A DNA stretch of 64,000 bases from Paramecium tetraurelia (taxonomy: Eukaryota). How positions within the stretch are numbered: position 1 is the first letter of the stretch; the number at the start of each line of letters is the position of its first letter. The stretch spans positions 62,001 to 126,000 of the forward strand of contig CT868119.1 in NCBI GenBank assembly GCA_000165425.1, written 5' to 3'. A model generated the notes under the pieces. It saw only the letters and a list, made by a program, of their open reading frames with translations. It was not told where the DNA came from and searched no databases. Positions 1 through 12,093 of this stretch are shown in pieces. Made by a program: the position numbers and the translations under genes.

Positions 1-882
1 TTTATCTTAACTTTCATCTTCTTCTTTTGGTTTTGCTTATGATTTTGCCTTAGATTTAGGTTATTCTTTATTTTATTAATTGTCTTTTTCTTTTTTCTTC
101 TCTTTTTCCTTAGCCGATTATTAAGGTTTTTCTTAAGATTTACTTTTCGACGTCCCTTTATTTTTGTCTTAACTTTTATTTTATGCCTTATTCTAAGTGT
201 TATTTTAGGATTTATTCTTTTTTTACGATTCTTAGTCATCTTATTATTGTGATTCATTTGCCTGATCTTCTCCTTCTCCTTCTTCAGTATTTTTATTTTT
301 ATTGGTTTTTTATTGTTTTTATTAACTATTTTTTTGAGCTTTTTAATCATCTTCTTCTCCTTCCTTCTAAGATTTCTCTTCGTCTTCACTAAGATTTACT
401 TCCTTTTATTTTGCATTGACAAAATTATATTCAATTGTAATTCTGTCTGCAATAATAGGGATAGTAGAATCATCTAATTAATAGTTTTGTTTTTTTCCTC
501 TTAAATTTTATTTCTAACCTTAATAACTCTATCCATTTAAATTTTACTTTATATTATCGTAATCCCTCTCTTCTCTGGATATGTGATGAGAATGATGATG
601 AAAATGTTGTATTTAAGGTGCTCTATGATGATGACTTAAATGTCTTCTAACATGATAATCATAGTCACTATCATAGTCGCTATCATAATCGCTGTACAAT
701 TATGAATACACATCATAGTCATAATAGTCATCAGGCTCTTGATATTACTTTTTATGACTTTAATAAAACTTATTTTCATTTTTTATATTTCCAAGTTTTT
801 AATTTTACTCTTTAGCCTCTTCATGTGAATTAGAGCCTTATTGGTTATCTTATTATTGTTATTATTGTTATTATTGTTATTA

Positions 883-947
<65 letters not shown>

Positions 948-2902
948 ACTCCTATTATTGTTACTATTATTATTATTATAACTTTTGTTATTGTTACCAT
1001 TATTATTATTATAACTCTTATTATTGTAATTGTTATTCTTGTACATTAAAACTAATTTAATCCTCTTAAATATTTTTAGTCTGTGAATTATCTTAATCAT
1101 CCAAAATAATCTCTTCGACTTTTGCTTATTATTCTATTATCATACCATCTTATTAATTTTATAAATTGAATTCAGATGTATCCTATAATTATAGAATTTA
1201 ATTTTGTTTTTCTTGATTATTATTAGTATGGCTTTATAAAATTGATGGTGTTTGATTGTTATTTTATATTTCATTATTTTAGCTGTTTTAGATTGATGAT
1301 TTACTACCTGTAGTTTACTAATCCTCATTAAATTAAAAAACTTCTACATCTTGATTATCTTAATTTATCCAACTCATTGGATCTTCATAAACAATAAAAT
1401 CAATGTTCTACTAATTATCATTGTCTGTTTACAATAAACTTTATTATTGATCTTTCTTTTAATCACTCTATTAAGTCAGTGCTTCTTCATGTTTATCGTA
1501 TTTTGTTTCCTTCTAAATTTACTCGACATCATCCCTTAAAAATATTTCAGGATCTTGAGGAATATAAACTCCATTTAATGTCTTATATATAGATTTTTCA
1601 TCTAAATTATGAGATAATTATAAAGTTGAAATTTAATTAGAATCATCATCAATTTTATCTTTAATGTTAAAATTTTAAATAGGTTCAATAATCAAATTTC
1701 TATCTTAGTGCACTTCATTAAAGTTTAAAGAACCTTAATATTTAGATTCTGAATCAATTGAATATTATTGTAAAAAGATGCCATTGATTTATAATAGCTA
1801 TTTAATTCTCTCCAAGGATTTACAATTTGATTTTTAAATCAAAACAGCGAAATGATTGATTAGCATATCAGGTTAATATTTTTTCTTAGATTCAATAGAG
1901 AAAATATAATGTTCACATTTTTTAATGTTTTAACCTAACCTAGATTTAATTAGAAATTGTACATTTTTTGGTTTGAATAATATATATGTAACTTTGTGAG
2001 TTATTACATAACTCCTCATGCCATAAATAAATAGTGTTGTTTATTAGAATTTAATCTTGCATACTTATATCGCAGGAATTTGTTTGTATTTTTTAAATAA
2101 TTTCATACTCGCTTTAAACAACAGTATAAAACATATTATTATGTAACTTAAAATCTTAAAGGAATTAATTTTTTGAAAACTAGGCTAAGATTATTTAAAA
2201 TTTTACCTTTTAAGATATTTGCTGGGTATATTTGAAGAATATCTATTTATTCAATAAAGTGCTGTAACTATAAATCAGTTTTGCATTCATGCATTTTACA
2301 AATTCTATTCAATTAATTGAAATTTGTAATAATGTTATTTATTTGGTCTTCTACATTTTATGGAGTTATAAATATTATTTATAGAAAAATTGATTCAGGG
2401 TCATCAGATATTTATCTTAGACTAATTTTACCAAAATCCTTTAGGGCGAATTCTTTAAATGATGGTTGAGAAAATGTAATGATATTGAAATAAATTTGGT
2501 TTTCATCATCTATAATAAATTTAACTTGTTTATGTAAAAGCCCACCAACATAATTGCTATTTATTTAATAATCAGGAAAATTAAAGTACACATTAATCTA
2601 AAGAATAATTTTCATTTTACATCAAACTCTTTGTTAGCTTAAATTATTAGCACATCTTTGTAATTTTATATTTAATTTGTTGAATTGAATGCTATCTAAT
2701 ATGTGGAGTCTGAAGCTTTGATCCCAAACATGTCATTCTCCAATTCCAAAATTTATATGTATTCATCTATTCCATTCTGAATTTCACAAATTAATTTGGA
2801 TTTTATAATTTAGTTTTCTTGATTTAGTTCTTTTGAACCATAAACTGACATCATTAGTATGCAAGCTAGCAGAAAAGTTGTCCGTTTTAAGAAAAATTTC
2901 AT
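1..2902 (-). CDS. Large putative secreted/surface protein with signal peptide and Q/D/E/K/H-rich low-complexity C-terminal half (3' end outside window; exon structure approximate)
   Basis: Code-6 translation starts MKFFLKRTTFLLACILMMSVYGSKE (signal-peptide-like); tiny GT..AG introns; later polyQ, DYDSDYDSDYD and His-rich segments. Confidence 0.7.
850..1035 (-). repeat. (TAA)n/CAA microsatellite encoding polyglutamine
   Basis: Plus strand (TTA)n with TTG/CTA interruptions = TAA/CAA/TAG synonymous Gln codons on the minus strand. Confidence 0.9.
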
Positions 2903-7923: not shown

Positions 7924-9234
7924 TCATAATTATTTTCTATCATTATAACCTGAATTTCTAACAACTGAATTTCTCCCACTGTTGTTAGTTCCATATGTGC
8001 TATATCCCCCAGGAGCAATAGTGGCTCCTTTAATGGTACTAGTTTCAAATTAGGTAGTGACTCCAGTACCTGATGGTCCAGTTCTTTTAATTTCACTTTC
8101 TTTAGTTACAGTAACTTTGCTTTTTTTCATAGCCTCTAATTATGTTTCTGCCATGGTAAGTTTTTCAGAAATGTCAGAGTTGATTTCATTTTGCTATTTG
8201 AATTTCTTCTTCCATAATTCTACTTCTCCTTGAAGAGAAATAATTTATTATTCTGATTGAGAGAAACTCTCCAATTACATTTCCATTTCCCTTATTCTTT
8301 AATCCAGTGATTCAAGTTCATTGTCTTTGTCATTCATGAGTAATTTTAGTTTCCGAATTTCTTAATCTTTGAATTCATTTTGTTCTTGCGAACTTTTGAG
8401 ATCATCCGTTAGATTGCCTAAAAATGATAATAGATAATAGATATTACTAATTTTCTTTTTCAGTAGTCTGATTTCATCATCTGCTCCTTAATTTTTAGAG
8501 TTGGATTCCTAGAGTTATTTGTATCTTAATTTCCATTGGTCTAATTCATCTTGTAATTATTTATTAGATTGTCTGAGCCCTTATTCTTAAATTTTTAATT
8601 CTTTGTTAGCATTAATAAGTTCATTGATCTGGAATAGTAAGCATAAATACTTTGGAATCATCTTAGACATAGGATATCTAGGGGGCATTTCCTCTGAGTC
8701 TGAGATTTTCTTGTTGAAGATCGAAGAGATAGACCTCCAATTACACTTAAAATCACAAAATTAGATTACTGCATTTGGTTTTCCATCTTGAATCCATATC
8801 ATCTAATGTGACAACTTACAAGGGTCTTTCTTGATGATGCACCTCAGCATTATTTGGTTAAGTAGATGCAATCCTAACTGATGGGGTGATTAGGAGTGGC
8901 TGTGATTGCGTAATGCTTTAGGAAACAACAGGTGTGGTAGCTATTTATCTAGCAGAAAAAGGACTTCCATTTAATATAAATGTAATACGCAATTCCAATT
9001 TTCTGAGATGAATACGATTAGGTTAAGGCTTATTGCTGCTGCTAAGGACTATAAAATAGAGTGTGATCGTACTTGTATTGGAACAGTTCAGATTAACCGA
9101 TGGATCCTTAAGTGCCGTATTGACCTACTCTAGGGGGTCTGATTAGATTGGATGATTAATGGAGTAGTGATTGTATTTGAGAATGATTGTATCCTGCTTG
9201 GCTATGAAATAATTAAGTTGGATAATTACTCCAT
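7924..9234 (-). CDS. Coiled-coil protein, probably cortical/cytoskeletal, with Q/P-rich head and G/S/T-rich tail
   Basis: Open frame after removing five 22-30 nt introns; heptad-rich centre (ELDQWKLRY, EVELWKKKF). Confidence 0.75.
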
Positions 9235-9264
9235 GATGAAATAAGCTGTTATTAAATAATATTT

Positions 9265-10943
9265 ATGTTTAAAGTATATCCCTTAGGGTCTGGTTAAGAA
9301 GTCGGGCGTAGTTGTGTGATGTTTGACCATTTACGATAAAACGATCATGTTGGATTGTGGTTTGCATATGACACATCAAGACAATCGCAGATTTCCAGAT
9401 TTTTCAGTATGAAGGATCTCTATCTAATTAGTTAATCGAGGAGAAATTGGGACGTAAGTACGTTGATTTGGTGTTAATCACACACTTTCACCTTGACCAT
9501 TGTGGTGCATTGCCATATTTCACAGAATTATATGGTTGATTAATATAATAATATTTAGGGAATGGCTATAATGGACCTGTAGTGATGTCTATGCCAACCA
9601 AAGCCTTGTTGCCTTACATGTTAGAAGACTATAGAAGAGTAATGTATTATTCCTATCTCGATAGATTTGGACAATGCCCAAGGAAGATTAACAATTCTAG
9701 CAGCAGTCATCCTAATAGGATTATAGTATCAATCCACAAATTAAAACTGATCCATTATTAATATACGACCATGAAAATATCAAATCATGTGTCAATAAAG
9801 TGTAAGTAATTGGGCTATATGAAACCCAAAACTTTGATGGAGTTGAAGTGACTGCTTATTATGCTGGTCATCTCTTAGGAGCTTGTATGTTTCATGTCAA
9901 ATATAAAAACGTATCAGTTGTCTACACAGGAGATTTACAATTCTATTGCTGATAGACATCTGGGTGGAGCCTATATTGATCAATTGCAACCAGATCTTGT
10001 GATTTCAGAAAGCACTTACGCTACCATCATCAGAGATAGCAAAAGAACGAGAGAGAGAAACTTCTTGATGCATGTCTAAGAAGTTCTTGATAGAGGAGGA
10101 AAAGTCTTAATCCCTGTGTTTGCTTTAGGGAGGGCCCAAGAATTGTCTGTGTTATTGGAATCTTATTGGTAAAGAACGAAATGCAAAGCAGGACTTTATT
10201 ATGCTGCTGGTCTCATTGAAAAGGCCAATTAATATTATAAGATATTTACTGGGTGGGAATCTGAAAAAATATAGTAGTCCTTCTTAGACGATAATATCTT
10301 CAACTTTAAATACATACAACCGTTTGATAGAAATCTAATTAAAAGTCCATTATCAATGGTATTATTGGCTACTCCTGGGATGTTACATGGAGGTCTAAGT
10401 ATGTAGGTCTTTAAAGAGTGGTGTGGGTGTGCAAATAATAGTTTGGTTATTCCTGGCTATTGTGTACCTGGAACCTTAGGAAATAAGCTACTTGCTGGAG
10501 TCAAACATGTTAGAATAGATAATAAAGATTATGATATCAAAATGCAAATCAATAATATGTCATTTAGTGCTCATGCTGATAGCAGAGGAATCATTCAGTT
10601 AGTGAATCATCTTTAACCTAAAAGTATAGCTTTTGTTCATGGAGAATATCACAGAATGAAAACTCTAGGAGCCGAAATTATTGATAAAATCTAAATTAGA
10701 GTTGATTGTCCTGCTAATTTTGAATTGCTTGAGTATGAAAAGATCTTGTCTATCGATCGACCTTTAACCATTAAAGGAGAATTCAATAAGAACATGAAAG
10801 GATATTTGTTGGAATACAAAGGGTAAATGGTTTTGTTATCTGATGAAAACGATATAATGAAAGAAGTAAATTAATTACTAGGAATAATGCAATCAGAATA
10901 GGGATATATGAGGTAATATAAAATCACTGGTCATCTATTGTGA
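9265..10943 (+). CDS. INTS11: Integrator subunit 11 / CPSF73-like metallo-beta-lactamase beta-CASP nuclease, carrying two +1 frameshifts in this sequence
   Basis: [91 protein letters not shown]; extra T at 9322-9324 and 9934-9936. Confidence 0.9.
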
Positions 10944-10965
10944 GTGTAATTAATTTATATATAAA

Positions 10966-12093
10966 TCAATCTCTATAAGTAACAATTGAGAAGCTTTTTT
11001 ATTATCTGCTTTTCGTCTTAGTCCTAACATTTATTGAATGTGATCTCAATTTGGGTAGTTTCAACACATCTCTTTTAATAGTCTATTAGTTCATTAGACT
11101 CTAATGTCTTGGAGTAACTGATTATGTCTGATTCCTGTTTTAAATAAGTGTGTCCATATTGCTATCCAAATCAAATTATTATAAATAAGTAAGCAAACTA
11201 ATGTCATTTAATTTTACTAGGTTTCTGAATCCTTTTTAATATTTAGTTTAATTTATCATCTCATTTGTCTATTTTTATTGCAGCGAGGGTTGTTTTTAAA
11301 GAGTATCCTTCCTTTGCACAGTCTAAAATCTTAAACTGACTCCTGGCTACAATTTGATATCCTAAGTCTATGACTCTATAAATTCAACAATTGTTGTGTC
11401 TTCATTATCCGCTTGTTTTTTTTTGTATCGTATCTACTCTACCAATTTTGGTTTTGATATCACAGTATTATTATCAGACTTAGGTACTTCAAATGGTAAT
11501 GTAGTAATTACATCTTTTTATATTTAATTTTTAGACCTTGCAATAGGATCACAGTTGTAATCGTAAGTATATTCCTTCGATCCTATTTGCATTATCAATC
11601 TATTATATTACTCATTCAATAATCGTTTCTCCTTAGATCGTTCTCTCAAAAGCTATTCCTTATTTGATTTGTCTATACATTTTTATTCCATTATTCTCCT
11701 TTCATTTGGATATTCCTCCACGTACTCTATTGTTTTCTATCTAACCAGTTGGGGTTCATAGTCTTCCCACAATTACATCGGAACCGTAAATTAATGCTTG
11801 GGATACATATCTATTTTGGGTGTTATCCTAACTGAAATTGGTGCTATGTCCTTGATATCATAGGCCCTAAATCTTTCCTTCTGTGTACTCTTGGATTCAA
11901 AATCCTCTATCTCAATATCATTCTGAAAATAAGGATCGAAGCATTTTTAATGCATCACATTAAAGGCCAGATTGACTGTATAAGAAGCACTTGATTAAGA
12001 TTCTAAACTAGCGAATATGTTATCCTCTATTTGAGTCATGATCTTGTTAATCAAGAAAGGGATGATAGTTTCGACTATCTCTAAATATTCCAT
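10966..12093 (-). CDS. Hypothetical protein
   Basis: Continuous code-6 ORF MEYLEIVETIIPFL...YTYDYNCDPI...LQPGVSL...TYRD*. Confidence 0.7.

What the first reader, a model, noticed from the sequence alone, without database searches (positions are those of the whole stretch)
9301..9960. Two identical TT->TTT (+1) frameshifts in an otherwise pristine INTS11/CPSF73L nuclease gene
Seen: GTG ATG TTT GAC CAT (TTT at 9322-9324) needs one T removed to give [17 protein letters not shown], and GGA GAT TTA CAA (TTT at 9934-9936) needs one T removed to give the conserved YTGDYN..DRHLG. The recognisable catalytic motifs and the introns are otherwise intact, and I found no such lesion in the other conserved genes I translated. 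A cryptic 19-nt GT..AG intron (9911-9929) would restore the second frame but delete the metal-binding YTGD, so gene predictors could hide the defect. Inference: assembly error is the most likely cause, then a very young post-duplication pseudogene, and least likely but most interesting, +1 ribosomal frameshifting or U deletion at UUU. Frequent +1 frameshifting is established in Euplotes, but to my knowledge not in Paramecium.
Basis: partly seen in the sequence, partly recalled or inferred. Interest (0 to 1): 0.7.

Follow-up and report, generated by a model that had tools for sequence, protein, structure and literature searches.

The report
Two reference-assembly errors in INTS11 gene
The two extra T's that break this Paramecium RNA-processing nuclease gene are absent from independent DNA and RNA data, so they are sequencing errors of the old reference assembly and the gene is intact and ordinary.

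Summary
An Integrator subunit 11 (INTS11)-type nuclease gene at 9265-10943 (+, ciliate code) is cut into three open pieces by one surplus T at 9322-9324 and one at 9934-9936.

The surplus T's are not biological.
- When four public runs were laid on 9100-11000, the only differences in 1,901 bases were one letter missing at 9322 and one at 9934. This held in two assemblies of other runs (depth 182 and 45.6; one guessed DNA, one of unknown kind), in an RNA contig (second site only) and in raw stranded RNA reads (11 of 13 and 2 of 4).
- The window is the Paramecium tetraurelia macronuclear reference. Its public gene model (484 aa) is reproduced exactly from the window.
- Four sibling species encode colinear proteins of 532-533 aa.
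- The makers of this assembly later removed 10,339 spurious 1-2-nt insertions from its 72 Mb (PMC3464196).

Verdict: a known class of draft-assembly error. It is not frameshifting, RNA editing or a pseudogene. Interest is low; the only practical value is that the public protein record is mis-modelled.

The parts
9265..10943 (+). INTS11-type metallo-beta-lactamase / beta-CASP nuclease gene (ATG 9265, TGA 10941-10943). It encodes 533 aa once the two surplus T's are disregarded.
   Evidence: pieces colinear with sibling proteins. (Pfam Lactamase_B / Lactamase_B_6, Beta-Casp, RMMBL). (nearest named relatives are called integrator complex subunit 11).
9322..9324 (+). Site 1: TTT in the window. One letter is left out here in other data, so the true sequence is TT.
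   Evidence: table 4: left out in 11 of 13 raw RNA reads (X24) and in the contigs of X5 (depth 182.4) and X12 (depth 45.6). X20 does not cover this site.
9934..9936 (+). Site 2: TTT in the window. One letter is left out here in other data, so the true sequence is TT.
   Evidence: table 4: left out in 2 of 4 raw RNA reads (X24), in the RNA contig of X20 (depth 7.24) and in the contigs of X5 and X12.
9407..9431 (+). Intron 1, 25 nt, GTA..TAG.
   Evidence: Its removal gives colinearity with the sibling proteins. It is not shown by spliced reads (one search lists no joints).
9535..9558 (+). Intron 2, 24 nt, GT..AG.
   Evidence: Inferred from colinearity with the sibling proteins, not from reads.
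9639..9664 (+). Intron 3, 26 nt, GTA..TAG.
   Evidence: Inferred from colinearity with the sibling proteins, not from reads.
9911..9929 (+). Cryptic 19-nt GT..AG stretch. The public gene model uses it as an intron to step over site 2. It is really coding sequence (..VSVVYTG..).
   Evidence: P0124 is reproduced exactly only with this intron. table 8: RNA contig X20 record 6 runs 9889-10432 with one gap only (the T), so this stretch is not spliced out in that contig.
10866..10881 (+). 16-nt GT..AG stretch that the public model uses as a last intron, giving a different C-terminus. It is probably coding.
   Evidence: exact reproduction of P0124; four sibling models read through it. table 8: X20 record 8 spans 10693-10927 with 0 gaps.

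Best explanation
The window is the Sanger-era reference macronuclear assembly of Paramecium tetraurelia. Its consensus carries two spurious single-T insertions (TT called as TTT) inside an otherwise intact, transcribed, single-copy INTS11 gene.

The organism's DNA and mRNA have TT at both places, and the gene encodes a normal 533-aa nuclease. Nothing has to 'work' at these sites.

The automatic gene model of the reference compensated in two ways, producing a truncated public protein of 484 aa:
- It starts at a downstream ATG (9347).
- It invents a 19-nt intron (9911-9929), which removes a conserved ..YTGD segment.

Shown here: the T's are absent from other data; the window reproduces the public model exactly; the pieces are colinear with sibling proteins.

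Inferred: the T's arose as base-calling or consensus errors rather than as real variants of the sequenced DNA sample.
For: 1. Reads. Over 1,901 bases the only differences between the window and four runs are one letter left out at 9322 and one at 9934. There are no other letters and no joints.
- The T-less form stands in contigs of X5 (depth 182.4) and X12 (depth 45.6).
- It stands in the RNA contig of X20 at site 2.
- It stands in raw RNA reads of X24: 11 of 13 at site 1 and 2 of 4 at site 2.
- X24 behaves as real stranded RNA. First mates lie on the minus strand across the gene, on the plus strand over the upstream minus-strand gene, and depth is about 0 across 9228-9291 around the gene's start (ATG 9265).

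2. Word shares. None of the 24 listed runs (12 studies) holds all sampled words. 16 runs from 7 studies hold 0.96. Losing only the 31-letter words that span the two sites would give 1 - 62/1671 = 0.963. This is my inference; only 4 runs were laid.

3. Identity of the window. P0124 (GSPATT00008614001, P. tetraurelia macronuclear, 484 aa) is reproduced letter for letter from the window with ATG 9347 and the cryptic introns. The reference itself therefore carries both T's.

4. Relatives. P. octaurelia, primaurelia, pentaurelia and sonneborni models of 532-533 aa are colinear across both sites. P0125 matches at 529 of 533 residues.

5. Known error class (PMC3464196, Methods passage 'Strain 51 reference genome'; 72 Mb). 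Polishing this very assembly with Illumina reads removed 10,339 insertions of 1-2 nt, filled 929 deletions and corrected 13,758 substitutions.
- That is about 9 spurious insertions per 64 kb and 0.24 per gene of this length.
- The Poisson chance of two or more in one such gene is about 0.025. With tens of thousands of genes, many genes with two are expected (my arithmetic).

6. Control. 14 of 14 frame changes in 10 other conserved genes have proper introns, so the breaks are not a general reading habit of the organism.
Against: - X5, X12 and X20 are assembled contigs, which drop rare variants. They prove the T-less form is present, not that a TTT form is absent.
- In the raw RNA reads, 2 of 13 (site 1) and 2 of 4 (site 2) did not show the omission. 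I could not see whether these reads merely end near the site or carry TTT.
- I could not tell which strain each run comes from. I could not lay reads of the DNA sample from which the reference was built.
- The paper gives genome-wide totals, not a list of corrected sites, and I did not open its supplements. That these two T's are among the 10,339 is therefore inferred.
- Two errors 612 bases apart with none elsewhere in 1.9 kb is somewhat clustered for a uniform error rate.
Confidence: 0.93

Rival explanations
1. The insertions are real but private. They would be true variants (germline or somatic macronuclear) of the particular strain d4-2 culture that was sequenced, making this copy a null allele there, while other strains and cultures have the intact gene.
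For: - The reference carries both T's.
- The reference strain is said to differ from strain 51 at a few loci (PMC3464196, passages).
- The macronucleus is about 800n and heterogeneous according to the same paper.
- Contigs cannot exclude a minority form.
Against: - There are zero substitutions in 1,901 bases against runs filed under at least two different organism labels (X5 under A, X12 under C). This argues against a diverged locus.
- Two independent frameshifts would have hit one gene for which I saw no second aurelia-type copy. In one search nothing lies between the 97% cluster and 59% identity, and that cluster holds one P. tetraurelia protein. Only proteins of 184-587 aa were searched.
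- Spurious 1-2-nt insertions are the dominant documented error of this assembly, outnumbering deletions eleven to one.
Confidence: 0.05
2. The gene is a young pseudogene left after whole-genome duplication, decaying while an intact paralogue does the work.
For: Paramecium has many duplicate genes (PMC3464196, passages). The two frame breaks superficially look like early decay.
Against: - The breaks are absent from other DNA and RNA of the same organism label.
- The gene is transcribed from the correct strand (table 2).
- It is 529 of 533 residues identical to the P. octaurelia protein.
- No second aurelia-type copy appeared, within the 184-587 aa length band.
Confidence: 0.01
3. The breaks are bypassed by programmed +1 ribosomal frameshifting, or by deletion of a U from the mRNA at UUU.
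For: Both sites need the same +1 step at a TTT. Frequent +1 frameshifting exists in another ciliate, Euplotes (PMC10952039, abstract and passages).
Against: - The independent assemblies X5 and X12 already lack the T, so nothing has to be edited or bypassed.
- RNA reads lack it too.
- Neither site has a stop codon in the incoming frame, whereas the commonest Euplotes site is AAA-UAA-A. At site 1 the incoming frame runs on for about 87 codons before a TGA.
Confidence: 0.005

Closest known systems
Spurious 1-2-nt insertions in the 13x Sanger draft macronuclear assembly of P. tetraurelia strain d4-2, later removed by Illumina polishing to give the strain 51 reference (PMC3464196, Methods passages)
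   Same: Same assembly (the window reproduces its public gene model exactly). Same kind of lesion: a one-base insertion that short-read data do not confirm.
   Different: The paper gives totals only. I did not see a site list, so membership of these two positions in the corrected set is inferred.
Integrator complex subunit 11 (INTS11), a metallo-beta-lactamase / beta-CASP RNA endonuclease and paralogue of CPSF73
   Same: - Domain order Lactamase_B / Lactamase_B_6, Beta-Casp, RMMBL.
- The best named relatives outside Paramecium, at 46-59% identity over the C-terminal 335 aa, are called integrator complex subunit 11.
- Conserved stretches such as HFHLDH, YTGD and FSAHAD are visible in the translation. 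Their roles as metal-binding or beta-CASP motifs are recalled, not tested.
   Different: The reference sequence as deposited cannot encode it in one frame. The public model lacks the first 29 residues and the ..VSVVYTGD segment, and has another C-terminus. Separation from CPSF73 rests on the names of the best hits only; I built no tree.
Euplotes stop-codon-linked +1 ribosomal frameshifting (PMC10952039, abstract and passages)
   Same: A ciliate, with a +1 shift needed at a run of three identical bases.
   Different: There is no stop codon in the incoming frame, the run is UUU rather than AAA, and above all the extra base is not in the organism's DNA or RNA.

Membership tests
INTS11 / CPSF73-type beta-CASP nucleases | N-terminal metallo-beta-lactamase domain | tested here: met
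   window pieces 9432-9533 (Lactamase_B, 6.9e-08) and 9665-9934 (Lactamase_B_6, 1.7e-06). The colinear sibling P0125 gives Lactamase_B_6 at 5.5e-17 over residues 20-213.
INTS11 / CPSF73-type beta-CASP nucleases | Beta-CASP insertion domain followed by the RMMBL RNA-specificity domain | tested here: met
   window 9936-10940 gives Beta-Casp at 4.5e-22 (profile 1-120 of 120) and RMMBL at 4.4e-16 (profile 2-63 of 63).
INTS11 / CPSF73-type beta-CASP nucleases | Metal-binding and beta-CASP signature residues present | tested here: inconclusive
   Stretches HFHLDH, AGH, YTGD, SESTY, FSAHAD and VHGE are present in the translation. Their assignment to the family's numbered motifs is recalled. No structure or alignment to a solved member was made.
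INTS11 rather than CPSF73 | Closest relatives are INTS11 orthologues | tested here: met
   outside the Paramecium cluster, the hits whose source names their function are called integrator complex subunit 11 (46-59% identity). This rests on source names only. No phylogeny was made, and only the C-terminal 335 aa was the query.
Programmed +1 ribosomal frameshift site (Euplotes type) | The extra base is present in genomic DNA and in mRNA | tested here: not met
   one letter is left out at both sites in the independent assemblies X5 and X12 (guessed DNA and unknown kind) and in RNA reads and contigs.
Programmed +1 ribosomal frameshift site (Euplotes type) | Slippery codon followed by a stop codon in the incoming frame | tested here: not met
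   the incoming-frame codons after the sites are TTT GAC and TTA CAA. The motif AAA-UAA-A is from PMC10952039.
Draft-assembly insertion error | The base is not confirmed by independent sequencing of the same organism, while the flanks are identical | tested here: met
   0 other letters over 1,901 bases and exactly 2 one-base gaps in the contigs of X5 and X12.
Draft-assembly insertion error | The base is absent from the reads of the very DNA sample that was assembled | not testable with these tools

The most novel reading that the evidence does not exclude
The TTT forms were truly present in a sizeable share of the roughly 800 macronuclear copies of the culture sequenced for the reference. That would be somatic single-base insertion variants carried in an essential gene and buffered by polyploidy, which the consensus happened to pick up twice in one gene.
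Probability: 0.03. Interest if true: 0.25.

Novelty: not a real feature. Interest (0 to 1): 0.05.

Why it matters
The finding has no biological importance, because the gene is an ordinary intact INTS11.

It has practical value in three ways:
- The public protein record for this gene (P0124; 484 aa against 533 aa) lacks its N-terminus and a conserved active-site segment, and it carries a wrong C-terminus. It would mislead alignments and catalytic-residue surveys.
- The case shows how a gene predictor can hide a frameshift behind an invented 19-nt intron in a genome with tiny introns.
- Apparent frameshifts in this reference should be checked against the polished strain 51 assembly or short reads before being interpreted.

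Tried and rejected
- Whole-genome search for a paralogue: no genome is held for this window.
- Self-trained codon-usage scoring to trace reading frames across the 64 kb and find further hidden one-base breaks. The first training drifted to Q/E/K-rich low-complexity ORFs. The second, trained on 3,569 Pfam-supported codons, did not even follow the INTS11 frames. I dropped it, so I have no window-wide count of other insertion errors.
I re-sent 104 of them in three batches. The other 40, which include the two INTS11 ORFs (scanned separately), several ORFs at 1-1784 and overlapping or opposite-strand frames of genes already covered, were chosen by eye and not scanned.
- Earlier notes of this scan: none for this genome. 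The word search returned only unrelated genomes.
- Intron confirmation from RNA: one search lists no joints (reads of 58 letters, depth 3-12), so the three true introns rest on colinearity with sibling proteins.
- IES-excision error as a cause of the extra T: considered and not pursued. Site 1 has no TA, and a one-base insertion is not the documented product of such errors (TA-indels in PMC3464196).

Full report
**What is in the sequence**

The window is AT-rich (22-34% G+C). Around the finding it reads as a ciliate gene with TAA/TAG as glutamine and tiny introns. A gene for a metallo-beta-lactamase / beta-CASP nuclease lies on the plus strand from ATG 9265 to TGA 10941-10943.

Its coding sequence falls into three pieces that are each open in their own frame:
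- Piece 1: 9265-9321, 19 aa.
- Piece 2: 9323-9934 after removal of three GT..AG introns (9407-9431, 25 nt; 9535-9558, 24 nt; 9639-9664, 26 nt), 179 aa.
- Piece 3: 9936-10940, 335 aa.

Passing from one piece to the next requires skipping one T of TTT 9322-9324 and one T of TTT 9934-9936.

**What the gene is**

Pfam finds Lactamase_B / Lactamase_B_6 in the first two thirds, and Beta-Casp plus RMMBL in the last piece. A search with the last piece found one cluster at 97% identity and then proteins at 46-59% identity. Of the latter, those whose source names their function are called integrator complex subunit 11.

The 97% cluster holds proteins of five Paramecium aurelia species. The P. octaurelia, primaurelia, pentaurelia and sonneborni proteins are 532-533 aa. 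The P. tetraurelia entry (P0124, GSPATT00008614001) is only 484 aa.

The three window pieces align end to end with residues 1-19, 20-198 and 199-533 of the P. octaurelia protein, with 529 of 533 residues identical. Each break is therefore exactly one surplus base in an otherwise perfectly conserved gene.

**Where the window comes from**

The 484-aa public model is reproduced letter for letter from the window under these conditions:
- Translation starts at ATG 9347.
- The three true introns are removed.
- 9911-9929 (19 nt) and 10866-10881 (16 nt) are spliced out as well.

The window is thus the P. tetraurelia macronuclear reference, and that reference carries both T's. The gene predictor hid the first break by taking a later start, which loses 29 residues.

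**The decisive test**

Twenty of 24 listed public runs (10 studies) hold the stretch. I laid four of them on 9100-11000:
- X24: raw stranded RNA reads.
- X20: contigs of an RNA library.
- X5: contigs of a run guessed to be DNA, filed under organism label A.
- X12: contigs of a run of unknown kind, filed under organism label C.

Across 1,901 bases the tool lists no other letters and no joints. It lists exactly two indels: one letter left out at 9322 and one at 9934. X5 (depth 182.4) and X12 (depth 45.6) each cover both sites in one record, with 0 other letters and 2 gaps. X20 covers only the second site and lacks the T there. X24 lacks it in 11 of 13 reads at site 1 and in 2 of 4 at site 2.

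X24 looks like real RNA rather than carried-over DNA:
- First mates lie on the minus strand over the gene.
- They lie on the plus strand over the neighbouring minus-strand gene.
- Depth is about 0 across 9228-9291, which spans the short intergenic gap and the gene's start (ATG 9265).

In addition, no run reaches a word share of 1.00. Sixteen runs from seven studies sit at 0.96. That is what is expected if only the 31-letter words spanning the two sites are missing (1 - 62/1671 = 0.963). This is my inference, since only four runs were laid.

**Limits of the read evidence**

- Contigs show that the T-less form is present. They cannot show that a TTT form is absent.
- I could not see why 2 of 13 and 2 of 4 RNA reads did not show the omission. 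They may simply end near the site.
- Strain and sample identities are coded.
- No spliced reads were reported, so the three true introns are inferred from colinearity with sibling proteins.
- RNA contig X20 record 6 spans 9889-10432 with only the one-base gap, and record 8 spans 10693-10927 with none. The two invented introns of the public model are therefore not spliced out in those contigs.

**How common such errors are**

I read passages of the Methods section 'Strain 51 reference genome' of PMC3464196. The macronuclear genome was assembled from 13x Sanger reads of strain d4-2. It was then polished with Illumina reads, first from the same d4-2 DNA sample and then from strain 51. The polishing removed 10,339 insertions of 1-2 nt, filled 929 deletions and corrected 13,758 substitutions. 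The assembly is 72 Mb.

By my arithmetic that is about 9 spurious insertions per 64 kb and 0.24 per gene of 1.68 kb. The Poisson chance of two or more in one such gene is about 0.025. That is low for one gene, but many cases are expected over a genome of tens of thousands of genes (gene number recalled). I saw no site list and did not open the supplements, so membership of these two positions in the corrected set is inferred.

**Control within the window**

I scanned 104 of the 144 stop-to-stop ORFs of at least 150 aa against Pfam.

Ten other genes had family hits split over two frames or a clearly recognisable fold: Sec1, two Ser/Thr kinases, a CK1-like kinase, ribosomal protein S23, PP2C, glutamate-cysteine ligase, ribophorin II, a radial-spoke-head protein and a proteasome beta subunit. 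The S23 and CK1 assignments are by eye and recalled.

At all 14 frame changes inspected there is a canonical GTA..AG intron of 22-28 nt with the right length modulo 3. The two INTS11 breaks are the only ones without such an intron. The control is partial. An attempt at a window-wide frame tracer based on codon usage failed.

**Alternatives**

- RNA editing and ribosomal frameshifting are contradicted, because the independent assemblies X5 and X12 already lack the T and the RNA lacks it as well. Neither site resembles the Euplotes stop-linked site AAA-UAA-A (PMC10952039, abstract and passages), and the incoming frames continue with sense codons.
- A young pseudogene is contradicted by the intact, transcribed sequence in other runs and by 99% identity to the sibling protein. 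No second aurelia-type copy appeared (length band 184-587 aa only), and no genome could be searched.
- The only rival with some weight (about 5%) is that the T's were real variants of the particular culture sequenced for the reference. The documented excess of spurious insertions, and zero substitutions in 1.9 kb, make a consensus error much more likely.

**Verdict**

This is not a biological feature. Its only use is as a correction to the public gene model, and as a caution about frameshifts and very short predicted introns in this reference.

Noticed in passing
window 10866-10881 (+): The public 484-aa model splices out a 16-nt GT..AG stretch and ends ..KEEQCNQNRDI. Four sibling-species models read straight through to a longer, conserved C-terminus (..[24 protein letters not shown]..), and an RNA contig (X20 record 8) spans the stretch without a gap. 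This is probably a second mis-modelled feature of the same public record, unrelated to the two T's.
   Followed up: partly
window 9202-9229 (-): Three RNA reads of X24 stop at 9201 and continue with ten letters that match 9230-9239 (table 7). The skipped 28 bases read GTA..TAG on the minus strand. The neighbouring minus-strand gene therefore has an intron here, and its first exon ends only about 30 bases from the INTS11 start codon: a very short divergent intergenic region.
   Followed up: partly
window 9612-9739 (+): RNA depth of X24 falls to 0.09-0.34 over two bins, although sibling proteins show this stretch is coding (a Q-rich insertion ..KEDQQFQQQSSQQ..). It may be chance at a depth of 3-12, or the effect of a read filter. 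It is not explained.
   Followed up: no
window 1-2250 (-): A long ORF running off the window's start has an uninterrupted run of about 35 glutamines and further Q-, D- and K-rich low-complexity tracts (translation printed). It was not scanned against Pfam.
   Followed up: no
window 3470-50000, ten genes: All 14 inspected frame changes in Sec1, PP2C, glutamate-cysteine ligase, radial-spoke-head, proteasome beta, three kinases, ribosomal protein S23 and ribophorin II genes are canonical GTA..AG introns of 22-28 nt. No further one-base breaks were seen in these conserved parts, although about 9 spurious insertions per 64 kb would be expected from the published totals.
   Followed up: partly
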